A stretch of DNA of 32,670 bases from a virus, in the UHGV virus genome UHGV-0203498; one strand, given 5' to 3'. Below are positions 8,645 to 31,661 of the stretch, piece after piece. The notes under the pieces were generated by a model. The model had not been told where the DNA came from. It did not search any database and saw nothing but the letters and a program-made list of their open reading frames with translations. A program made the translations under genes and the position numbers. Positions within the stretch are counted from its first letter, which is position 1; each line of letters opens with the position of its first letter.

Positions 8645-8674
8645 TTGCAATCTGGGTGTTGGTTGCACTATATT
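8645..8674 (+). promoter_or_regulatory. Putative sigma70-like promoter for the DnaN-like moron (TTGCAA-N18-TATATT), overlapping TTGGTTGCAC motifs
   Basis: TTGCAA at 8645-8650 and TATATT at 8669-8674; TTGGTTGCAC copies at 8659-8668 and 8673-8682; palindrome TTGGT-N5-ACCAA at 8673-8687 just before the RBS. Confidence 0.4.
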
Positions 8675-8703
8675 GGTTGCACACCAACAACGAGGAAATG
8701 AAA

Positions 8704-12286: not shown

Positions 12287-13672
12287 TTAGTAGAAGTCTA
12301 CAGTTGGAACAACGGCGATTGGGCGAATCACAGGGAACAAGTGCGCAATTGGATAGCCCGCTGCATCGTTCATGTGGTCCACTCCGGCGGTTTTATCCGG
12401 CTCGCCTTTCTTCAGGTCGTAAACCTGCTGTTCCAGGCATTTCGCTAGTGTAGGGCATTTATCCAGGTTGACAAAATACTGGCGCACGCCCTTCGAGTTG
12501 CACATCATCGTATTCATCGCGATCAATCGGTCTTTCACAGGCGGGTTAACGCTGTCATATTCCACCTCGAAGCCTGCGTCTTCCAGTTGCGCGATATCTG
12601 ACGAAGAGGCGTTAACCGTCTTACGCGACTTGCCGCTGCTATCCGGGTAAACGACAACCCGACCGGCAGCACAATGATCGGGGTAGCGCTCCTCGATCGC
12701 CTCAATCATAGCCGGGGTGTCAAACAGGTCCACAAATTCATCCACTGCGTGGATTTCGTCGCGGAACTCCTTGTTCTCGGTAGTGCGCTGCCGTCTGACG
12801 TACACAACCGCAGCCATTTTCGTGACGTTAAAGTCCATACCAATAATCAACGTGTCATCCGGTTGCACTTCTTCGGTGCTGGCGTTCTCCTCACGGTTGA
12901 ACATCTTGTATACTGCGCCCGACGTAAGGTTGACAAACAGGCCGTTCAGGTACGCATCAATCAGGTTAGCCGGGTACTGACTGCGCAGCGTGTCGATAAA
13001 GTCTGCCGGTAGGTGGTGGTTATCGGTGGTCTTCGCCCGGATCAAACGCTTCTGGCTATCCTTCTCCACTTCAAAAATCTGGTACATCGCCCGGTAGCCT
13101 TCAGGCGTGGATACGATGACAAACTGGCGCACCAGACCCGCACGCAGACGACCAAGCAATTTGTGATACGCCGCAATTGCGACGTCCTGCTTAGTAGTGT
13201 CGAACTCATCGGCAACAATCCACGCGGCGTTAACACCGATAAGGCGGGTATAGTTCTCCATTGACTCACAAATAACGCGCGTCCATTTGCCTTTCACCAG
13301 CACGCTATAAATCTTGTCCTGCTTGTTGAACTTCCACCGGAAGCCAGCCTCGTCGAAAGCCTTCTCCAGCTCCGGATACATGATTTTAACCAGGAGTGGG
13401 ATAGTCGGCTCGGTCACGATGCCGTCATGACCAGGGTTCAGTGTCAGAAGCTGGATGACCTTACGTGCTGCAACCCATGACTTACCACCACCGAAGCCGG
13501 AACACAGACCGAGGATTTTAGTCTTAGTGTCCCGCAGTAGTTCCACCTGGTGCGGAAGGCAATCAGGCTGATACAGGCGGACGGCCTGTGCAACTCGCGT
13601 TGGGCGTGGCGGTCGGTTGCGCTTTGCGATCGCGCGTTCCAGGGCGCGGTGTTCTGCCGCATAGTTGCGCAT
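12287..13672 (-). CDS. Terminase large subunit
   Basis: Walker A GLCSGFGGGKSW and Walker B-like IVADEFD; 461 aa; its start overlaps the small-subunit stop (TAATG). Confidence 0.85.
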   Translation of the reverse strand: MRNYAAEHRALERAIAKRNRPPRPTRVAQAVRLYQPDCLPHQVELLRDTKTKILGLCSGFGGGKSWVAARKVIQLLTLNPGHDGIVTEPTIPLLVKIMYPELEKAFDEAGFRWKFNKQDKIYSVLVKGKWTRVICESMENYTRLIGVNAAWIVADEFDTTKQDVAIAAYHKLLGRLRAGLVRQFVIVSTPEGYRAMYQIFEVEKDSQKRLIRAKTTDNHHLPADFIDTLRSQYPANLIDAYLNGLFVNLTSGAVYKMFNREENASTEEVQPDDTLIIGMDFNVTKMAAVVYVRRQRTTENKEFRDEIHAVDEFVDLFDTPAMIEAIEERYPDHCAAGRVVVYPDSSGKSRKTVNASSSDIAQLEDAGFEVEYDSVNPPVKDRLIAMNTMMCNSKGVRQYFVNLDKCPTLAKCLEQQVYDLKKGEPDKTAGVDHMNDAAGYPIAHLFPVIRPIAVVPTVDFY

Positions 13673-14223
13673 TACTCACCCTGGCCTTTGCCTGTAGGTT
13701 CGACAACGACGTCGCCGTTATCATCTTCGTCATCATCCAGCGGAATATCGTCGCGGACGCCGTGGTTGGCTTTAAGCAGGAACGTAGCGAAGCCCGCCGC
13801 GATGGTGACGCCGCCAGCTTCCATCAGGAAAGTTTTCTGCAATTCCATAGCGTCCGCCATCGCCTCGGCGAACTCCTCATGTGCGCGCGCCCAGCGGTAC
13901 AGGCAGGCGATGCCAACCCCAATATCCGCAGCAAAGCGACCGAGAGTCGGCATCTTGTGGCGGGGAATGACTTGCGCAGCGCCCTTGTCGGAGTAGTTGA
14001 TCTGCCAGGCTACGGCATCGGCAAAATAGCGGCGAAGCTGGTCGCAATACACAGTGCGGTAGTCTGTCGGGCGCCCACATTTGCCGCCTTTACGACGCTT
14101 GCCATATTCGATCTCAGGTCCAAGATTGGTATGTTCGGTTTGCTCGCCTGGTTTACGGCGCGGGGTGACTGCCACTCGACCGTCCAGTTTGGCACGACGG
14201 CCCTTAACTCTGATTTCTGCCAT
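13672..14223 (-). CDS. Terminase small subunit
   Basis: Directly upstream of the large subunit gene. N-terminal basic DNA-binding-like region GRPTDYRTVYCDQLRRYF and an acidic C-terminus. Start taken at ATG 14223; ATG 14244 is also possible. Confidence 0.65.
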   Translation of the reverse strand: MAEIRVKGRRAKLDGRVAVTPRRKPGEQTEHTNLGPEIEYGKRRKGGKCGRPTDYRTVYCDQLRRYFADAVAWQINYSDKGAAQVIPRHKMPTLGRFAADIGVGIACLYRWARAHEEFAEAMADAMELQKTFLMEAGGVTIAAGFATFLLKANHGVRDDIPLDDDEDDNGDVVVEPTGKGQGE

Positions 14224-14353
14224 GATATAAGCCCTTTTATGCATATGCGCCGACCATCGGCAACATAGGAGACGGCCCTGCCATCTAAGGGGGATTATAA
14301 CAGGCACAAAAAAGCCCACCAAATCGGCAGGCTGGGAGGCTTACGGGTTGCCG

Positions 14354-15496
14354 TTACTTCAACATTTCCGGGCTAATGGTTAAGCGCGCTACTTCGCCGT
14401 AATTGGCGCTGTAGGTGATGACGTTGGCACTACGACCGGACATCCAACCGCCGCGGCTTGCATATGCGTCTTTCGCGGCGAGCGTCCGGTGCTGCTCAAC
14501 AATCATGTTACGGGATTCTACAATCTTCTGGTGGTGCAAGTGACCGACATGCGCGTAACTGTACTCGCTTTCGCCAAATGCTTTTCTGAACTTAGCAATC
14601 ATAACCGTCTCGATTGCATCAAAGCGTGCTTTGTGTCCGTGGTGGAAAAACAGCGTGGTTTTACCGTGCCGCACCATCTTGTATACGTCCGGGGACGTGT
14701 CAACATCGACGCGCGGCTCGTTCTCATACAGGGTATTGAACATCTCCGCAAGCCAAATCATACCAGACTCGTCATGGTTGCCCTGGACAATTAGCAGTTT
14801 GACTTTGTGGTGCTTTTGCAGCGCCAGATCAACCACGTTGCGCACCATGCGAATCATGTAGCGCACCAACTTCTGGTATCGGGTGTCCGCGTCCAGAATG
14901 TGACCACTTGCCGGAGTGACGGCATCGAGGCTGTCAAAGTGCGCCATATCCCCGAGGATATTGATTACGGCAGTTCCTGCGTCTGGTGCGCGGGCGAATG
15001 CTTCGACAAACCAGCGGTAGAACAGATCTTCGGCGATTGCCATATCCCAGTCTTCGCCAGTCTCCTCGCCCCATGCCAGCATTCCCAGGTGGAAGTCTGA
15101 CACTGTGTACAGGTTGAGTAGGTCAAGTGCCTGGATCGGGACTGGCGGGGCGCTAACTGGTGCTGCCGGTGTGATTTCGCTGTTCATACCCTCGACAACA
15201 GCGCGCATTGCTTCGAGTTGGCGCTCCTTGTCCTGCTCGGTGATAACCCATGACATGACCTCCTCGCCATTGCCACGCACCAGGGCGGAGACACGCTTGA
15301 CGCCGAATCCATCGGCAACGCGCTTACGGATCACAGCATCGTTGCCGTGTCCAATACCTTTCTTCGACAGTCTGGCTTTGCGCATGTAGACATTCCGAAG
15401 AGCAATGCCGTATTTCTTCGCAATCTCTTTCGATGTAGTGCCAGCTTGCAATTCAGCGATTAATTGCTCGTCGGTAATTTTAGTTTGCGGGTGCAT
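14354..15496 (-). CDS. Helix-turn-helix domain fused to a calcineurin-like metallophosphoesterase (SbcD/Mre11-like motif set)
   Basis: N-terminal HTH-like ITDEQLIAELQAGTTSKEIAKKYGIALRNVYMRKARL. Metallophosphoesterase motifs SDFHLG, GDMAHFD, VQGNHDE, FHHGH and GHLHH. Confidence 0.7.
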   Translation of the reverse strand: MHPQTKITDEQLIAELQAGTTSKEIAKKYGIALRNVYMRKARLSKKGIGHGNDAVIRKRVADGFGVKRVSALVRGNGEEVMSWVITEQDKERQLEAMRAVVEGMNSEITPAAPVSAPPVPIQALDLLNLYTVSDFHLGMLAWGEETGEDWDMAIAEDLFYRWFVEAFARAPDAGTAVINILGDMAHFDSLDAVTPASGHILDADTRYQKLVRYMIRMVRNVVDLALQKHHKVKLLIVQGNHDESGMIWLAEMFNTLYENEPRVDVDTSPDVYKMVRHGKTTLFFHHGHKARFDAIETVMIAKFRKAFGESEYSYAHVGHLHHQKIVESRNMIVEQHRTLAAKDAYASRGGWMSGRSANVITYSANYGEVARLTISPEMLK

Positions 15497-15649
15497 ATTA
15501 ATTTAATTCCTGATTGAGAGGACCGGGGACAATATACCACGGTCGCTATAGTAATTCGCAAATAACCATACCTACGAATGCCGCTGTGGCCCATATTGCC
15601 AATACCCAAATATCATTGCGTGTCATAGTGTGTTACTCCTTCTCGTTGA

Positions 15650-15685
15650 TTGGTTGCAGTATGGTCTCTATGTTGGTTGCAAGTC
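15650..15685 (+). promoter_or_regulatory. ATTGGTTGCA motif pair
   Basis: GATTGGTTGCAG and TGTTGGTTGCAA lie 24 bp apart, immediately beside the 15691-15716 hairpin. Confidence 0.45.
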
Positions 15686-15690
15686 AAGCA

Positions 15691-15716
15691 ATAAAAAGCC
15701 CGGATAATTCCGGGCT
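15691..15716 (-). terminator. Intrinsic terminator downstream of the endolysin-distal small gene
   Basis: Perfect 8-bp stem AGCCCGGA / TCCGGGCT with loop TAAT; on the minus strand it is followed by UUUUAU. Confidence 0.5.
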
Positions 15717-15722
15717 TCATGT

Positions 15723-15909: not shown

Positions 15910-16401
15910 TTACACTGCGTTACGTCCAATTTTCTCGGCAACGTCCCACTGCTTACCATCGAATAGTGCCTGCCTGCCGATTGCACGACGGACAAGCCCC
16001 TTGAGCACTACCCCGCCTTGCTTGCGGAATTGTGGCAGTGTAGCTCGCACCTTAGCCCAGTCACCCAGTCGCACCGCATCGTCGAAGTCACCGGCTACGT
16101 CGTCCGGCATGACCGGACCCGGGCCAGCATTGATAACCAGGTCCACCAGCGCGTCGAATTGCGCCTGATTAATGCTCGGGTGTGCGTACTTGTTAACCCA
16201 GTTCTCGGCATACGCCACATCGCGCTTGAGTAGCTCCAGCGCTTCCGCTCGGGTAATGCTTCGAGGCGGGTTCGTGCCAGTATGCCCATAGCCCCAGGTG
16301 TACAGGCCGCGTGCCTGCTCTTTCTTAGTCGCGAAATACGGCACTGGGCTGAATTGCTCCCATGCTGCCGTAAATCTTAGACCGTTGTCACTGAATCGCA
16401 T
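15910..16401 (-). CDS. Endolysin, phage lysozyme (GH24-like)
   Basis: N-terminal region AAWEQFSPVPYF...GLYTWGYGHTGT matches the catalytic-Glu and GYGHT region of T4/P22-type lysozymes. Its start overlaps the upstream holin-like stop (ATGCGATTCAGTGA). Confidence 0.8.
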   Translation of the reverse strand: MRFSDNGLRFTAAWEQFSPVPYFATKKEQARGLYTWGYGHTGTNPPRSITRAEALELLKRDVAYAENWVNKYAHPSINQAQFDALVDLVINAGPGPVMPDDVAGDFDDAVRLGDWAKVRATLPQFRKQGGVVLKGLVRRAIGRQALFDGKQWDVAEKIGRNAV

Positions 16402-18732: not shown

Positions 18733-18776
18733 TGCAACCAATATAACAGGGTGCCAGGGTGACTGCAACCAATATT
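18733..18776 (-). promoter_or_regulatory. ATTGGTTGCA motif pair with overlapping promoter-like hexamers upstream of gene 18711
   Basis: On the minus strand: ATATTGGTTGCAGTCACCCTGGCACCCTGTTATATTGGTTGCACACCAACAGGAGG. Confidence 0.45.
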
Positions 18777-18921: not shown

Positions 18922-19083
18922 TTTATGCAGTCTCAGACGAGGGGGGTGCCAGACCCCCCGTCTAGTCTGAAAGACTGGGGTGCTGTCCCGCTGTCCCGCT
19001 CCTCTGGAAGCCGCGTCATCCGTGGGCGGGACGGGGTGCTGTCCCGCTTTGTCCCGCCCCTGGTCTGTCCCGCTTTTTGTCCC
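18922..19083. repeat. Copy B of the ~163-bp structured repeat element
   Basis: 18923-18999 is identical to 2128-2203 and 19027-19083 is identical to 2233-2289, in the same orientation, 16.8 kb from copy A. Confidence 0.85.
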
Positions 19084-19132
19084 GCTTACTTTATGCAATA
19101 AAAATGCATAATTATTCACTATATTCACACTA

Positions 19133-19216
19133 CACGGCAACCAATACGACCAGCTAAAAACACGCAATCTGGCAACCAATGCGCGCAGAAATTAACCAAC
19201 ATGGCAACCAATGCGC
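19133..19216 (-). promoter_or_regulatory. Three ATTGGTTGCC motif copies, including an exact 17-bp direct repeat
   Basis: Plus-strand GGCAACCAATGCGCGCA occurs at 19172-19188 and 19200-19216; a third GGCAACCAAT is at 19133-19142. Located downstream of the primase gene stop. Confidence 0.5.
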
Positions 19217-19223
19217 GCAAATT

Positions 19224-21488
19224 TTAATCTTTCAAGTCATCGTCTGTCGCCGAAAGCGTGATTGGGATATCCGATTTGATAACCAAATTAGACGACCCAT
19301 ATATGGCCCCGGTGTGTGGATCTGTGTAAAAACCGAGCACGCCGCGCTCGACCATATCGTCAATTGCCTTCGTCGATGTGCCACCTTTCGCGAGTCCCGC
19401 CTGGCGGACAATTGCCGATTTACTGAATCCAGTATGATCCGGGTTATCTTCCATCAGTTTTTCCAGTGCCGCATAAAGCACTTTTTCTTTTTCTGTGCGC
19501 GGTCCGGCGGTGTTCTCTTCCTTAACTGCGGCTTTGCCCGCGGCCTTCGCCTGTTCGATAGCGAACGGTGCCAGGGCAACCGGTACGAGGTAGAGAGTCT
19601 CGTCGCGTGGCGTGGAGGCGATAGGCTTGACGTCCCAACCGGCAACCACATCGCCGAAGTCAGGCCCAGCGCTGGTGGACTGGTGGGCTTCGAACGCCTC
19701 GGACTTGCGGAGATCCACCTTCACCTTGCACTTGAGCAGGACGAAGCCGCGCGGCGCTTGCTTGATGCCGTTACGAGACTTCTCGTGGTACAGGTTGAGT
19801 TGGCCTGGCTGGTTGTCGTCTGGCTGTTCCAGGAAGAACGCAGAATCGACAGCACCATGAAGCGCGCCGGATCCGCGTGGCGTTCTGCTGCCGTTTGCAC
19901 CTTTAGCCGGGTGGTGGATGACGCCCGCGCTGCCGCCTGTATTTTCCGCAATGGCCTTCAGCGCCTTGACTACCTCGCCCATATCGCTGGCGTTGTTCTC
20001 GTCGAATGGCTTGGCATCGGCGGACCGCAGCGCGACAGTCTGGTTGAGTGAGTCGAATGCCACCAGGCCAACCGGTTCGCCATTCGCGGTGCGATTGATA
20101 AAGCTGATAACTTCGCGCAGGCCAGACTTGCTGGTGATATCCCAGCCGCGTGACTGCAGGTCTATAATGTGCAACTTGTCCAGGTCGTGCTCGTATTTGA
20201 TCTGCAATGCTTCCTTACGCTGGCTGGAGGCTTCGCCGCCTTCCGCATCGAAATAGAAGCAATGGGACTGGACGACCTTCGCACCGCCAAACGGGATACC
20301 AGCGGCAACCGCGCCCATCTGACCCAGCACGTAGAACGACTTACCGATGTTCGACTCACCGGCGAGATACCAGGTCGATTTGAAGTTAACCAGGCCTTCG
20401 ATGATCGGGTCGTGTTTACTGAACAGGGCGACCGGCTCGTTGTCCAGGTCTGCATCTGTGCATTCGCCGAACTCGTCGCCGTCACCGACCGCGTCCACGA
20501 TATGCTCGTAGCATGATTCCACTTCCTCGTCGTCCAGCCCCGGAAGGATGGCGGCGATCTGCTTACGTGACATGTTGTGCGGTTCGACGTTCAGGTGGTC
20601 CGGGATACCGATCAGACGCAGCGCCAGGTGCTGGTGTTTATTCAGTTCTGAGCAACACTCGTTACCGGTGTGCATACACTTGAAACGGATCTCGCCATCC
20701 TTAACCAGGATTGCCGTTGACCCTTCGCCACTGTGCAGGTGTTCGTTAGGACACGGCACTTCATAGCCGCGACCGGATGACAGGGGTTCAAAGCCCGCCT
20801 GGAAGCACCAGTCCAGGATGCCGTCTGCCACACCGCCGTCGCCCTGGGTCAGTTCGTGGCGTACTTCCTCTTTCTCAACTCCCAGCTTGTCAGCCAGGCG
20901 GAGCAGACGACGGACGCGGGCACGCTTGCCGTAGTGGCACTTAACGACAGCCTGCTGGTGCGGCAGGTACATAAGGCGGTTTGTGTCTTTCGTGCAATCG
21001 TCGAAAGCCACATCAGACAGGCCCAGTTGGTCTAACAACGCATACTGGACGCGGCCCAGGTCTTCCGCCGGTACAGGCTTGTCAGTGAGCACCAGGAAAC
21101 GAGCGCAACGCGTGCCACCTTTCAGCGGGTGTCGGTCGCCGGTAGTGGTGTGGAAGACGTGCTCCAGTCCCGCGTCGATGAACGCCTTACGGCAGCGGCG
21201 TAAGGTGCTGGTGTCGGTGCGGTCAATATCGAAGAACAGGATCGAGCGGTCCACCGCACTGGTCTTACGACGCAATCCGTCACGGGTATACGCCACTATG
21301 CCATCAGCCTTACGCTTGCGGCGCGCATACTCGGCTTTATCTTCCGTCTTGTTGATATGCACCGACGATATTTCTTTCGCATCTTTGATAAATTCGAAAA
21401 ATTCATCAGTGGTCATCTGGAAGTTTTCCGCCCTGGCTTTTTCGCCTTTTTTAGCGGGTTTTGTTACAGCGAATTTAATTAAGCTCAT
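19224..21488 (-). CDS. DNA primase / helicase (primase-polymerase-like N-terminal domain, zinc-binding middle region, P-loop ATPase C-terminal domain)
   Basis: N-terminal ILFFDIDRTD (hhhhDhD primase-polymerase-like motif); Cys/His cluster CPNEHLH...CMHTGNECC; Walker A AGESNIGKS and Walker B-like GLVAFDSLN. Confidence 0.8.
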   Translation of the reverse strand: MSLIKFAVTKPAKKGEKARAENFQMTTDEFFEFIKDAKEISSVHINKTEDKAEYARRKRKADGIVAYTRDGLRRKTSAVDRSILFFDIDRTDTSTLRRCRKAFIDAGLEHVFHTTTGDRHPLKGGTRCARFLVLTDKPVPAEDLGRVQYALLDQLGLSDVAFDDCTKDTNRLMYLPHQQAVVKCHYGKRARVRRLLRLADKLGVEKEEVRHELTQGDGGVADGILDWCFQAGFEPLSSGRGYEVPCPNEHLHSGEGSTAILVKDGEIRFKCMHTGNECCSELNKHQHLALRLIGIPDHLNVEPHNMSRKQIAAILPGLDDEEVESCYEHIVDAVGDGDEFGECTDADLDNEPVALFSKHDPIIEGLVNFKSTWYLAGESNIGKSFYVLGQMGAVAAGIPFGGAKVVQSHCFYFDAEGGEASSQRKEALQIKYEHDLDKLHIIDLQSRGWDITSKSGLREVISFINRTANGEPVGLVAFDSLNQTVALRSADAKPFDENNASDMGEVVKALKAIAENTGGSAGVIHHPAKGANGSRTPRGSGALHGAVDSAFFLEQPDDNQPGQLNLYHEKSRNGIKQAPRGFVLLKCKVKVDLRKSEAFEAHQSTSAGPDFGDVVAGWDVKPIASTPRDETLYLVPVALAPFAIEQAKAAGKAAVKEENTAGPRTEKEKVLYAALEKLMEDNPDHTGFSKSAIVRQAGLAKGGTSTKAIDDMVERGVLGFYTDPHTGAIYGSSNLVIKSDIPITLSATDDDLKD

Positions 21489-24913: not shown

Positions 24914-24923
24914 CCGCTCAGAC

Positions 24924-24950
24924 GCAACCAAGTAGATTAGCAACCAAGCC
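24924..24950 (-). promoter_or_regulatory. TTGGTTGC motif pair (variant) upstream of the SSB gene
   Basis: Plus-strand GCAACCAAG at 24926-24934 and again 16 bp later. Confidence 0.35.
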
Positions 24951-28649: not shown

Positions 28650-28924
28650 CCCCAGAAGGCAAGATTCAAAGCTACCTGATGCGTCGGGTGAAAGCGGTGG
28701 GTGGATTCTGCCGCAAAGTGGCCTGGGAGGGGCGCGCAGGTGCGCCCGACCTGATTATCATCATCAACGGCATCATTGTATTCGTCGAAGTGAAGCGCCC
28801 AGGGGGAAAACCGAAGCCGCACCAGGTGCGAGAGCATGCGCGGATGGCCCGCCGCGGTGCTGACGTTCGCGTCATTGACAACATAGCCGACTGTGATTTA
28901 TTGGTTGCTGAATTGGTCGCATAG
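28646..28924 (+). CDS. VRR-NUC domain nuclease
   Basis: GAPDLIII...VFVEVKRPGGKPKPHQ matches the PD-(D/E)xK core of VRR-NUC domains; start coupled to the upstream stop (ATGA). Confidence 0.8.
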   Translation: MTPEGKIQSYLMRRVKAVGGFCRKVAWEGRAGAPDLIIIINGIIVFVEVKRPGGKPKPHQVREHARMARRGADVRVIDNIADCDLLVAELVA

Positions 28925-31627: not shown

Positions 31628-31661
31628 ATTGGTTGCATAATCATATTGGTTGCATTATATT
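31628..31661 (+). promoter_or_regulatory. ATTGGTTGCAT motif pair forming a sigma70-like promoter (TTGCAT-N17-TATATT)
   Basis: Motifs at 31628-31638 and 31645-31655; -35 at 31633-31638 and -10 at 31656-31661. Confidence 0.45.

What the first reader, a model, noticed from the sequence alone, without database searches (positions are those of the whole stretch)
14354..15496. Helix-turn-helix domain fused to an SbcD/Mre11-like metallophosphoesterase, directly upstream of the terminase genes
The protein combines an N-terminal HTH (KITDEQLIAELQAGTTSKEIAKKYGIALRNVYMRKARL) with a full phosphoesterase motif set (D-x-H, GD, GNHD, H, GHxH). The GDMAHFD form without a DRG extension looks more like the nuclease branch (SbcD/Mre11) than the Ser/Thr phosphatase branch. 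A DNA-binding nuclease or phosphoesterase placed before the small and large terminase genes could act in genome end processing or packaging, or in degrading host nucleic acid or signalling nucleotides.
Basis: partly seen in the sequence, partly recalled or inferred. Interest (0 to 1): 0.6.

Follow-up and report, generated by a model that had tools for sequence, protein, structure and literature searches.

The report
Phage HTH-tethered Mre11-like phosphoesterase
The gene is real and encodes a DNA-binding domain fused to an intact metal-dependent phosphoesterase that most resembles Mre11/SbcD-type nucleases, but it belongs to a large, already catalogued and still uncharacterised phage family (T1 gp16 type) and is transcribed separately from the neighbouring terminase genes.

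Summary
ORF 14354-15496 (minus strand, 380 aa) encodes a basic N-terminal LuxR/sigma-70-region-4-type HTH, a conserved beta-hairpin/helix module and a complete metallophosphoesterase (MPE) domain. The metal-binding residues are invariant across relatives only 32-48% identical to it. The window is a Dhillonvirus-like E. coli siphophage.

The protein matches PHROG 704 ("DNA repair exonuclease") over its full length, as does phage T1 gp16. Homologs occur in 2,048 phage records, about 4,660 clusters at 50% identity, and in prophages.

The terminase link is weak. A terminator and a separate extended -10 promoter lie between this gene and TerS. In T1, Webervirus, Jerseyvirus and Vibrio phages the homolog is not next to terminase. 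The recurrent position is the early/late junction around the lysis cassette.

Most likely it is a DNA-tethered stand-alone nuclease of phage DNA metabolism, by analogy with T5 A1 and mycobacteriophage Gp48. This is inferred, not shown. It is a known kind with unknown function, of moderate-to-low interest.

The parts
14354..15496 (-). CDS of the HTH-MPE protein, 380 aa, a member of PHROG 704 (the phage T1 gp16 family)
   Evidence: ORF. phrog_704 E 1.8e-161 over residues 5-380. 98.7% identical to Escherichia phage Oekolampad bas18_0065.
15359..15481 (-). N-terminal helix-turn-helix domain (residues 6-46), LuxR/GerE or sigma-70 region 4 type, basic
   Evidence: GerE E 5.6e-3 for the query. Sigma70_r4_2 1.5e-9 and GerE 2.4e-8 in relatives. 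Family profile against GerE structure 1fse, E 0.02. AF2 helices 9-17, 22-29, 33-45. pI 10.3.
15176..15316 (-). Conserved beta-hairpin plus long helix module (residues 61-107), followed by a low-confidence Pro-rich linker (108-125)
   Evidence: AF2 strands 64-73 and 79-88 and helix 90-107, with the linker at pLDDT about 64. G77 and W83 are nearly invariant, and the consensus reads KGxSTLY...G....QWVK. The module is retained even where the HTH is replaced by a zinc ribbon.
14357..15121 (-). Metallophosphoesterase catalytic domain (residues 126-380) with motifs DxH, GD, GNHD, H and GHxH. It carries a family-specific conserved insert between motifs II and III (H186, D188, T194, P195, D202, R206).
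15695..15718 (-). Terminator-like hairpin ending the lysis-gene block upstream
   Evidence: 10-bp stem with 6 GC pairs plus a T-run. The stem is conserved and the loop differs in three relatives.
15650..15687 (-). Sigma-70-like promoter (TTGACT, 18 nt spacer, CATACT) overlapped by two copies of the phage motif TGCAACCAA (15673-15681 and 15650-15658)
   Evidence: Promoter scan. Motif search and site contexts. Conserved in relatives.
15546..15626 (-). Small conserved ORF of 26 aa (MTRNDIWVLAIWATAAFVGMVICELL), hydrophobic, with a strong AAGGAG ribosome-binding site. It is the first cistron of the unit.
   Evidence: Read from the sequence. The start codon and reading frame are kept in three relatives, with mostly silent or conservative changes.
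14313..14333 (-). Terminator-like hairpin 21 nt after the stop codon of the HTH-MPE gene
   Evidence: 9-bp stem plus TTTTTTG. Essentially identical in four phages, with a single base difference in AV129.
14294..14302 (-). Extended -10 promoter element TGTTATAAT directly after the terminator, upstream of TerS
   Evidence: Read from the sequence. Invariant in four phages. The consensus scan did not report it because it has no -35 hexamer.
13672..14223 (-). Small terminase subunit (context only, not part of the unit). The true start is ATG 14223, not the TTG at 14322 of the mechanical ORF.
   Evidence: phrog_3064 E 8.8e-71 from residue 37. Oekolampad bas18_0001 is 552 nt. Alignment.
12287..13672 (-). 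Large terminase subunit with its own RNase H-like nuclease domain (context only)
   Evidence: Terminase_6N 5.6e-14 and Terminase_6C 5.3e-7.

Best explanation
The gene encodes a stand-alone, DNA-tethered two-metal phosphodiesterase of the Mre11/SbcD-like nuclease branch of the metallophosphoesterase superfamily.

Proposed mechanism (inferred, not shown):
1. The basic N-terminal HTH, with the conserved hairpin/helix module, holds the enzyme on double-stranded DNA.
2. A flexible Pro-rich linker lets the C-terminal catalytic domain reach the DNA backbone.
3. The Asp/His/Asn residues of the five motifs bind two metal ions (Mn2+-type) that activate water to cut phosphodiester bonds, without a Rad50/SbcC ATPase partner.

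The gene is expressed as its own small transcription unit: promoter, 26-codon ORF, HTH-MPE, terminator. That promoter carries the same GCAACCAAT element as the promoters of the phage's DNA-metabolism genes. I therefore place the protein with phage DNA metabolism and not with the terminase.

The most likely biological role is breakdown of host DNA, processing of DNA ends or replication/recombination intermediates in mid-to-late infection, or both. This rests on two experimentally studied partner-less phage MPEs, T5 A1 and mycobacteriophage Gp48.

Shown here: the architecture, the intact and selected catalytic site, the structural neighbours, the separate transcription signals and the family distribution. 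Inferred: DNA as the substrate, nuclease activity and the biological role.
For: - Complete MPE motifs are invariant across 63 representatives at 32-48% identity to the query. The catalytic domain is more conserved than the HTH (41% against 25% mean pairwise identity).
- A domain-only profile recovers only T. maritima Mre11/SbcD among solved MPEs. The aligned motifs are TDxHLG with SDWHLG, GDFLH with GDLLH, plus GNHD and GHxH.
- A nucleic-acid-binding N-terminus is a stable family trait. It is an HTH in nearly all members and a zinc ribbon in three related prophage loci.
- Neighbours in other phages are DNA or nucleotide-metabolism genes: helicase, VRR-NUC and Dam in T1 and Webervirus; a HAD PNKP-type phosphatase plus dNMP kinase in Webervirus; RecA-dependent nuclease and NinB in metagenomic phages and prophages.
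- The gene has its own promoter, terminators on both sides, and a promoter motif shared with replication-gene promoters.
- Precedents exist for partner-less phage MPEs. T5 A1 is essential and sufficient for host chromosome digestion (bioRxiv 10.64898/2026.04.02.716235). Mycobacteriophage A10ZJ24 Gp48 is expressed early, is toxic, and degrades linear, circular and genomic DNA in vitro in a motif-dependent way (PMC12287305).
- The phage already has a separate recombination exonuclease and annealase pair (phrog_69 and phrog_112), so this is an additional nuclease-type function.
Against: - No activity has been measured for any member of this family, as far as the searched literature shows.
- Sequence-profile matches to Mre11/SbcD are not significant (E 0.46-1.4).
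- Pfam Metallophos models match below their gathering scores.
- The profile-to-profile comparison with the T5 A1 family gives only 39.8% probability over 67 columns. A1 is therefore a functional analogy, not a demonstrated sister family.
- The MPE domain is mildly acidic (pI 6.2).
- The family is common in prophages integrated in bacterial chromosomes, which fits less easily with wholesale host-DNA destruction as the family-wide role.
- The time of expression is not known.
Confidence: 0.5

Rival explanations
1. Packaging or maturation accessory nuclease. The HTH-MPE would cooperate with terminase, for example by recognising or trimming genome ends or by clearing branched or hairpin structures from concatemers before headful packaging. 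This would be analogous to the HNH proteins that work with HK97-type terminases (that analogy is from my own knowledge).
For: - The gene lies directly upstream of TerS and TerL in this window and in all Dhillonviruses examined.
- The order lysis cassette, MPE gene, then later genes recurs in at least 11 other loci, and TerL lies just downstream in 3 loci (L031, L043, L083).
- In several phages the gene sits at the start of the late region.
Against: - A terminator-like hairpin and a separate extended -10 promoter lie between the gene and TerS, and both are conserved in four phages.
- Two close relatives have an extra 70-codon ORF inserted there.
- The promoter motif of the gene is shared with replication-gene promoters but not with the TerS promoter.
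- T1 gp16 is about 32 kb from TerS (about 15 kb on a circular map), and the Webervirus, Jerseyvirus and Vibrio homologs are not adjacent to terminase.
- TerL already has its own RNase H-like nuclease domain.
- Module junctions are common insertion points for accessory genes, so position alone is weak evidence.
Confidence: 0.12
2. Nucleotide-directed phosphodiesterase. The enzyme would hydrolyse small molecules, such as cyclic nucleotide immune signals (CBASS, Pycsar or type III CRISPR messengers), NAD+ or dNTP-type nucleotides or 2',3'-cyclic nucleotides, as counter-defence or nucleotide-pool management.
For: - In Webervirus the homolog is followed by a HAD phosphatase and a dNMP kinase.
- In one metagenomic phage an Acb2/Tad1-hairpin protein lies about 1.4 kb downstream.
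- Calcineurin-like domains that cleave NAD+ or dADP exist in defence systems (bioRxiv 10.1101/2025.11.05.686725 and 10.64898/2026.01.15.699771).
Against: - A DNA-binding domain fused throughout a very diverse family is hard to explain for a small-molecule enzyme.
- The DxHLG and GDxxH motifs match Mre11/SbcD.
- There is no match to any PADLOC model.
- There is no consistent linkage to known anti-defence genes.
Confidence: 0.12
3. Transcription regulator with an attached enzyme domain. The sigma-70-region-4/LuxR-like HTH would bind the GCAACCAAT sites that overlap about eight promoters, including its own. The protein would then control the early-to-late switch, with the MPE domain acting as an effector or sensor.
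For: - GCAACCAAT is the most over-represented 9-mer in the window (13 copies against 0.22 expected). It occurs in pairs inside sigma-70-like promoters, including the gene's own promoter.
- One public record names the gene 'transcriptional regulator'.
- In many phages the gene sits at the early/late boundary.
Against: - The phage type encodes at least one other HTH protein, bas18_0050 (109 aa; HTH_23 and Sigma70_r4_2, E about 2e-6). It lies next to the helicase-primase gene, close to the densest cluster of sites, so the binder is not identified.
- The invariant catalytic residues show that the enzyme activity is what is selected.
- The HTH is the fastest-evolving part of the protein.
- The enriched motif in T1 is different and is associated with ribosome-binding sites.
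Confidence: 0.1
4. RNA end-healing enzyme. The MPE domain would remove 2',3'-cyclic phosphate or 3'-phosphate ends, as in the phosphoesterase domain of Clostridium thermocellum Pnkp, and work with a polynucleotide kinase-phosphatase against tRNA-cleaving defences.
For: - In Webervirus the homolog is immediately followed by a PNKP-type HAD phosphatase (PF25109, E 2.1e-20).
- MPE enzymes with this activity are known (PMC2190708, abstract).
Against: - No kinase or ligase partner is annotated in the Dhillonvirus genomes examined.
- In T1 the pnk-like gene is about 36 kb from gp16.
- CthPnkp belongs to the lambda-phosphatase-like branch (PMC2190708), and PPP-type phosphatases of that branch are structurally distant here.
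- An HTH suggests duplex DNA rather than RNA ends.
Confidence: 0.05
5. Lambda-type Ser/Thr/Tyr protein phosphatase, like lambda NinI, acting on host or phage phosphoproteins.
For: It has the same superfamily fold, and lambda's phosphatase also sits in the nin region close to the late genes (the latter point is from my own knowledge).
Against: - The GDxxDRG and GNHE signatures are absent; the protein has GDMAHFD and GNHD.
- No PPP hit appears in any sequence search, even at E up to 10.
- No PPP chain is in the Foldseek top 50.
Confidence: 0.03

Closest known systems
PHROG 704 / phage T1 gp16 (ST16, YP_003929.1, annotated 'DNA repair exonuclease'), with its homologs in Drexlerviridae, Dhillonvirus and Guernseyvirinae
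   Same: The length and three-part architecture are the same: HTH, hairpin/helix module, MPE. The match is full length (E 1.8e-161 for the window protein, 7.2e-155 for T1 gp16). The T1 gene is also followed by a terminator.
   Different: Nothing essential differs, so the window protein is a member. The genomic position differs: T1 and Webervirus have the gene before the lysis cassette in the helicase/Dam region, while Dhillonvirus has it after the lysis cassette next to TerS. The family name is an annotation only, and I found no experiment on any member.
Mre11 / SbcD nucleases (T. maritima Mre11 3qg5, S. aureus SbcD 7dog, E. coli SbcD 6s6v)
   Different: The protein has no capping domain; it ends with the catalytic core. 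The phage encodes no Rad50/SbcC partner. It has an N-terminal HTH instead. Sequence identity is only 14-18%, and the profile matches are not significant.
Phage T5 A1 (predicted metallophosphatase that drives host DNA degradation)
   Same: Both are phage-encoded MPEs without a Rad50 partner. The authors describe A1 as resembling DSB-repair nucleases and polymerase proofreading subunits, which are the same neighbours as here. Both families have nucleotide-phosphatase genes nearby in some members: T5 dmp, and the Webervirus HAD phosphatase.
   Different: A1 is 556 aa, with about 300 unrelated N-terminal residues and different motif forms (GDIH, HD, SNHD, HGH, GHTH). It belongs to a different PHROG, phrog_1745. 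The profile-to-profile probability is only 39.8%. Its DNA-binding partner A2 is a separate protein and is dispensable for DNA degradation. A1 is a pre-early gene.
Mycobacteriophage A10ZJ24 Gp48 (cluster A phage metallophosphoesterase)
   Same: It is a stand-alone phage MPE with the five motifs and demonstrated phosphodiesterase and DNase activity. It is toxic to the host and acts in counter-defence by degrading host DNA (PMC12287305).
   Different: Judging from the mutated residues (D10, D41, H175), it is much shorter and has no HTH. Mycobacterium was not among the ten most frequent organism names in the tblastn at E 1e-5 or better, although I did not inspect the full hit list. I did not compare it directly.
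PolD DP1 small subunit (archaeal 3'-5' proofreading exonuclease, 5ihe)
   Different: There is no OB-fold and no polymerase partner. T1, which carries a homolog, has no annotated DNA polymerase gene. A proofreading role cannot therefore be the family function.
Lambda protein phosphatase / PPP family
   Same: Only the superfamily fold and the two-metal centre.

Membership tests
Calcineurin-like metallophosphoesterase superfamily | Five metal-binding motifs in order: DxH, GD, GNH[D/E], H, GHxH | tested here: met
   D134/H136, G182/D183, N240/H241/D242, H286 and G318/H319/H321 are present and invariant in 63 diverse relatives.
Calcineurin-like metallophosphoesterase superfamily | Beta-sandwich MPE fold | tested here: met
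Calcineurin-like metallophosphoesterase superfamily | Score above Pfam's curated gathering threshold for Metallophos or Metallophos_2 | tested here: not met
   23.0 bits against a cut-off of 27, and 19.8 against 21.5. Only 16 of 63 relatives match Metallophos at E up to 0.01. The family is a divergent branch that the Pfam models barely reach.
PHROG 704 (T1 gp16-type 'DNA repair exonuclease') | Full-length match to the family profile | tested here: met
   E 1.8e-161, residues 5-380 on profile positions 2-390 of 390. T1 gp16 matches the same profile at 7.2e-155.
Mre11/SbcD nucleases | Mre11-type forms of motifs I and II (DxHLG, GDxxH), and nearest structural neighbours | tested here: met
Mre11/SbcD nucleases | Capping domain C-terminal to the phosphoesterase core | tested here: not met
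   The protein ends at residue 380 with the last core strands, 357-363 and 367-374. Only 183 of the 319 residues of SbcD align.
Mre11/SbcD nucleases | Rad50/SbcC-type coiled-coil ATPase partner, usually encoded next to it | tested here: not met
   None is found among the window's large ORFs, in the complete annotated genomes of close relatives, or next to the T1 or Webervirus homologs.
Mre11/SbcD nucleases | Mn2+-dependent exo- and endonuclease activity on DNA | not testable with these tools
   This needs purified protein.
PPP Ser/Thr protein phosphatases (lambda phosphatase type) | GDxxDRG and GNHE signature motifs, and PPP fold details | tested here: not met
T5 A1 family (phrog_1745) | Specific sequence relationship beyond the superfamily motifs | tested here: inconclusive
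   hhalign of the two family alignments gives probability 39.8%, E 3e-4, over 67 columns covering motifs IV-V and the C-terminal strands. The two belong to different PHROGs.
Terminase-associated packaging nucleases (by analogy with HK97-type HNH proteins) | Conserved adjacency to, and co-expression with, the terminase genes across the family | tested here: not met
   A terminator plus a separate promoter lie before TerS. The homologs are not adjacent to terminase in T1, Webervirus, Jerseyvirus or Vibrio phages. TerL lies within 3 kb in only 3 of 70 genome loci, which is a lower bound.
Known anti-phage defence or counter-defence protein models (PADLOC-DB 2.0) | Match to any model | tested here: not met
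   No family matches at E up to 0.1.

The most novel reading that the evidence does not exclude
The protein is a sequence-directed nuclease-regulator. Its HTH would recognise the GCAACCAAT sites that overlap about eight promoters of this phage, including its own, and that form an iteron-like triplet beside the helicase-primase gene. One polypeptide would then couple promoter or origin occupancy to Mre11-like DNA cleavage without a Rad50 partner, for example to shut off early transcription, to nick at defined sites, or to tell phage DNA from host DNA while the host chromosome is degraded.
Probability: 0.07. Interest if true: 0.7.

Novelty: new member of a known kind. Interest (0 to 1): 0.33.

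Why it matters
This family is one of the more widespread phage enzyme families that nobody has characterised. It has homologs in 2,048 of 50,697 phage records and about 4,660 clusters at 50% identity. It is present in the classic phage T1 (gp16), in Klebsiella and Salmonella phages of the kind isolated for therapy, and in many prophages.

Its catalytic site is strictly conserved, so it does something that phages need. If it is a partner-less Mre11-like DNase, it would join T5 A1 and mycobacteriophage Gp48 as a third, far more common type of phage MPE nuclease.

It would also be a candidate for the host-DNA breakdown activity long known in T1 (my recollection of 1970s-80s T1 genetics, not checked here). 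Such an activity could be one source of the methylated mononucleotides that the newly described Metis and PUA-Cal-HAD defence systems sense. One of those systems protects against a Tunavirinae phage.

For annotation, public names for this gene are inconsistent and include clearly wrong ones: oxidoreductase, transcriptional regulator, DNA repair exonuclease, hypothetical. For this window specifically, the gene is an ordinary member, 98.7% identical to a deposited protein.

Tried and rejected
1. **'Rosetta stone' idea.** I asked whether the HTH-MPE equals T5 A2 (DNA-binding) fused to A1 (MPE). I dropped it. A2 shows no similarity. Against A1, the single sequence aligns over one motif only and the family profiles give 39.8% probability. 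The T5 authors show A2 is dispensable for DNA degradation.
2. **Shared motif with T1.** I asked whether the GCAACCAAT promoter motif is shared with T1 and so linked to the shared HTH-MPE. I rejected this. The enriched T1 motif is AACCA[AG]TCAGGAG, mostly overlapping ribosome-binding sites, and it is dispersed inside genes.
3. **Assigning the GCAACCAAT sites to this HTH.** This cannot be done, because a second HTH protein exists (the bas18_0050 homolog).
4. **The Webervirus neighbour as a polynucleotide kinase.** The annotation is misleading. The protein is the HAD phosphatase domain only.
5. **HNH endonuclease neighbours in Jerseyvirus, Vibrio phages and T1.** They are HNH_3-type, probably homing endonucleases, and I did not take them as functional partners.
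6. **A 'Q-like antiterminator' next to the Dyella prophage homolog.** My by-eye call was not supported by a PDB sequence search, so I report it only as an unidentified zinc-finger protein.
7. **'Virulent phages only' as an argument for host-DNA degradation.** I rejected this after finding the family in many chromosomal prophage loci.
8. **Literature searches.** Searches for experiments on this family, including T1 host-DNA-degradation genetics and escape mutants, found nothing specific.
9. **Direct PDB sequence search with the single protein.** It gave only spurious repeat-protein hits.
10. **Genome-contig scans with alignments A1 and A4.** Alignment A2 worked.
Full report
**What is there.** The finding's coordinates delimit a real ORF, on the minus strand (15496 to 14354, ATG to TAA, 380 aa). 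Downstream on the same strand lie the small terminase gene and the large terminase gene. TerS is phrog_3064, and its true start is ATG 14223, as in phage Oekolampad. TerL spans 12287-13672 and has Terminase_6N and 6C domains. Upstream lie two holin-like genes, an endolysin (15910-16401, Phage_lysozyme 3.8e-20) and a small ORF. The window is about 91% identical in DNA to Dhillonvirus coliphages, and the protein is 98.7% identical to Oekolampad bas18_0065.

- The quoted HTH peptide is residues 6-43.
- The five metallophosphoesterase motifs are all present: D134-x-H136, G182-D183, G239-N240-H241-D242, H286, and G318-H319-x-H321.
- In an alignment of 63 representatives drawn from a 50%-identity library, only 32-48% identical to the query, the residues D134, H136, G182, D183, N240, H241, H286, G318 and H321 are invariant. 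So is a family-specific T194. H186, D188, P195, D202 and R206, between motifs II and III, are nearly invariant.
- The HTH is weak for the query alone (GerE E 5.6e-3) but clear in relatives (Sigma70_r4_2 1.5e-9, GerE 2.4e-8) and for the family profile against the GerE structure.
- AlphaFold2, run on a 106-sequence alignment, gives a confident model (pLDDT 88.6, pTM 0.72). It shows three N-terminal helices (9-17, 22-29, 33-45), a beta-hairpin (64-73 and 79-88), a long helix (90-107), a low-confidence Pro-rich linker, and an MPE core from about residue 126 to the C-terminus.
- The HTH region is strongly basic (pI 10.3) and evolves faster than the catalytic domain (25% against 41% mean pairwise identity).
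- The N-terminus is not a mis-called start. PHROG 704 covers residues 5-380 in one stretch (E 1.8e-161), and the same length and layout recur throughout the family.

**Which family.**
- The protein belongs to PHROG 704, as does phage T1 gp16 (ST16, annotated 'DNA repair exonuclease').
- tblastn finds homologs in 2,048 of 50,697 phage records: Escherichia 560, Klebsiella 468, Salmonella 373, Vibrio 254, Campylobacter 59, and more.
- An exhaustive search of 1.84 billion representatives finds 4,664 clusters at E up to 1e-3 and 1,138 at E up to 1e-30, mostly 375-420 aa.
- A scan of one genome per bacterial species finds 70 loci, many inside large contigs or complete chromosomes (Dyella halodurans, Stutzerimonas stutzeri, Pseudomonas fluorescens, Bordetella, Rhizobium). 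Temperate phages therefore carry the gene too.
- Nearly all these loci keep the HTH-type N-terminus. Three related loci have a zinc ribbon instead, but keep the hairpin module and the MPE.
- Public names for the gene are inconsistent: hypothetical, calcineurin-like phosphoesterase, DNA repair exonuclease, transcriptional regulator, oxidoreductase.
- I found no experimental work on any member.

**Which branch of the superfamily.**
- Sequence methods barely reach known families. The Pfam Metallophos models match below their gathering scores, and NCBIfam gives nothing useful.
- A profile of the MPE domain alone recovers only T. maritima Mre11/SbcD among all solved structures, at non-significant E-values (0.46-1.4). 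The aligned motifs are the Mre11 forms: TDxHLG with SDWHLG, GDFLH with GDLLH, plus GNHD and GHxH.
- Foldseek gives a flat list of MPEs at E about 1e-7, with no PPP phosphatase in the top 50.
- In the viral structure library the family grades into many phage relatives, often auto-named 'DNA polymerase II small subunit'. No characterised protein is on top.
- So the lambda-type phosphatase reading is excluded as far as these tools can tell. The nuclease branch is the nearest, by a modest margin.
- The protein is not a member of Mre11/SbcD proper. It has no capping domain, and no Rad50/SbcC partner exists in the window or in complete relatives.

**Relation to the terminase genes.**
- Immediately upstream of the gene lies a terminator-like hairpin (15718-15695).
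- Next comes a sigma-70-like promoter (TTGACT, 18 nt, CATACT; 15687-15658).
- A 26-codon hydrophobic ORF with a strong ribosome-binding site follows (15626-15546).
- Twenty-one bases after the stop codon lies a second terminator-like hairpin (14333-14313).
- An extended -10 element, TGTTATAAT (14302-14294), then precedes TerS.
- All of these are conserved in Oekolampad, rolling and AV129. Rolling and AV129 also have a 70-codon ORF inserted between the MPE gene and the terminator.
- The gene therefore looks like its own transcription unit.
- Adjacency to terminase is not a family trait. T1 gp16 lies in the helicase/Dam region, is followed by a terminator, an HNH gene and the lysis cassette, and is about 32 kb from TerS.
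- In Webervirus Shelby the homolog is followed by a gene annotated 'polynucleotide kinase', which is really a PNKP-type HAD phosphatase (PF25109, 2.1e-20), and then by a dNMP kinase.
- In Jerseyvirus it sits in a small module inside the tail genes. In a Vibrio phage it precedes an HNH gene.
- In metagenomic phages it follows nin-type genes (RecA-dependent nuclease, NinB) and precedes the lysis and terminase genes.
- Across the 70 genome loci (flanks of 3 kb, a small local reference set, so lower bounds), 18 have an endolysin on the same strand. It is upstream in 11, as here, and downstream in 7. Three loci have TerL just downstream, and eight have nin-type genes upstream.
- The recurrent location is the early/late module junction around the lysis cassette. 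Position alone does not tie the gene to packaging, but a late role cannot be excluded.

**How it most likely works.**
- The catalytic site is intact and selected, and the motif forms and structural neighbours are nuclease-like.
- A nucleic-acid-binding N-terminus is kept, or swapped for another, across a very diverse family.
- Neighbours elsewhere are DNA or nucleotide-metabolism genes.
- Two partner-less phage MPEs have experimental support as DNases. T5 A1 is essential and sufficient for host chromosome digestion, and its authors describe it as resembling DSB-repair nucleases and polymerase proofreading subunits (bioRxiv 10.64898/2026.04.02.716235). Mycobacteriophage Gp48 is expressed early, is toxic, and degrades linear, circular and genomic DNA in vitro in a motif-dependent way (PMC12287305).
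- I therefore commit to a DNA-tethered, Rad50-independent two-metal nuclease that works in phage DNA metabolism. Its role would be host-DNA breakdown, processing of ends or replication/recombination intermediates, or both. My confidence is about 0.5.
- The phage already has a separate exonuclease and annealase pair (phrog_69 and phrog_112), so this is an extra function.
- There are limits to this conclusion. No activity has been measured. The link to T5 A1 is an analogy (hhalign probability 39.8%). The structural margin over small-molecule phosphodiesterases is small. The prophage distribution argues against wholesale host-DNA destruction as the universal role, although the characterised Gp48 comes from cluster A mycobacteriophages, which are temperate (from my own knowledge).

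**Side observation bearing on the HTH.**
- The 9-mer GCAACCAAT is the most over-represented in the window (13 copies against 0.22 expected). TGCAACCAA with up to one mismatch occurs 21 times, which none of 100 shuffles reached.
- Copies come in pairs inside sigma-70-like promoters, including this gene's own. There is also a triplet next to an AT-rich stretch beside the helicase-primase gene.
- The motif marks a regulon of some phage DNA-binding protein. The HTH-MPE is one candidate. A second HTH protein (the bas18_0050 homolog, 109 aa) lies next to the densest cluster, so the binder cannot be assigned.
- The enriched motif in T1 is different and is associated with ribosome-binding sites.

**Verdict.** The gene is an ordinary member of a very large, catalogued but functionally untested phage family. 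Novelty: new member of a known kind. Interest: about 0.33, mainly because the family is so common and contains T1 gp16, which makes it a cheap and potentially informative target for experiment.

Noticed in passing
window 8659-8681, 15650-15681, 18007, 18733-18772, 18856, 19136-19211, 22017, 24923-24947, 28901-28921, 31629-31654: The motif GCAACCAAT (TGCAACCAA) is the most over-represented 9-mer in the window (13 copies against 0.22 expected). Copies occur in pairs inside or next to sigma-70-like promoters. Three copies of GGCAACCAATGCGCGCA at 32-35 bp spacing lie beside an AT-rich stretch next to the helicase-primase gene. This looks like the operator or iteron set of a phage DNA-binding protein, and the binder is not identified.
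   Followed up: partly
window about 2165-2446 and about 18962-19100: An element of about 130 bp, rich in TGTCCCGC repeats, is present twice. One copy lies in an ORF-poor gap within the tail-gene region. The other lies in the large intergenic region next to the helicase-primase gene, which also holds the GCAACCAAT triplet. It may be origin-, iteron- or regulator-related.
   Followed up: no
window 15546-15626 (minus strand): An unannotated 26-codon hydrophobic ORF (MTRNDIWVLAIWATAAFVGMVICELL) has a strong AAGGAG ribosome-binding site. It lies between the promoter and the HTH-MPE gene. The start codon and frame are kept in three relatives, and it is likely a small membrane protein.
   Followed up: partly
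L005 (Oekolampad) 36694-37023; by synteny the corresponding window gene lies just above 21488 on the minus strand, upstream of the helicase-primase ORF 19224-21488: A 109-aa protein with a C-terminal HTH (HTH_23 2.2e-6, Sigma70_r4_2 2.3e-6) lies directly upstream of the helicase-primase gene. Public records name it variously 'Gam nuclease inhibitor', 'resolvase' or hypothetical. It is a candidate origin-binding protein or regulator and a rival binder for the GCAACCAAT sites.
   Followed up: partly
L005 5004-5768; by synteny the counterpart in the window is probably the plus-strand ORF that starts near 8700, next to the motif pair at 8659-8681: The gene that some relatives annotate as 'DNA polymerase III beta subunit' matches Nmad5, nucleotide modification associated domain 5 (PF18757, E 6.9e-60). 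It is transcribed opposite to the structural genes, from a region carrying a GCAACCAAT pair. This hints at a DNA or nucleotide modification function in Dhillonviruses.
   Followed up: no
L002 (Klebsiella phage Shelby) 6161-6652; T1 ST64: The genes annotated 'polynucleotide kinase' in Webervirus (and, by its note, T1 gp64) are about 163-176 aa. The Shelby protein matches only the HAD phosphatase domain of PNKP (PF25109, 2.1e-20) and not a kinase domain.
   Followed up: partly
L010 (phage T1), 26 sites across the genome, for example 4927, 18852, 47052: T1 has a strongly over-represented motif, AACCA[AG]TCAGGAG (ACCAGTCAG occurs 14 times against 0.32 expected). Several copies lie immediately upstream of start codons and include the Shine-Dalgarno sequence. 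Others lie inside annotated genes, where they may mark unannotated starts.
   Followed up: partly
L027, L031, L033 (prophage loci in Xylophilus, Frateuria, Dyella): In these homologs the N-terminal HTH is replaced by a zinc-ribbon-like CPKCG...C module, while the hairpin module and the MPE are kept. This is a domain swap of the nucleic-acid-binding head.
   Followed up: partly
L012-L019 (T5 A1 homologs): T5 A1-type proteins are far more widespread than Demerecviridae (1,135 phage records). They include an Agrobacterium autographivirus, Caulobacter giant phages and Flavobacterium podophages. Their conserved C-terminal half carries an unusual MPE motif set (GDIH, HD, SNHD, HGH, GHTH), and no Pfam model detects it.
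   Followed up: partly
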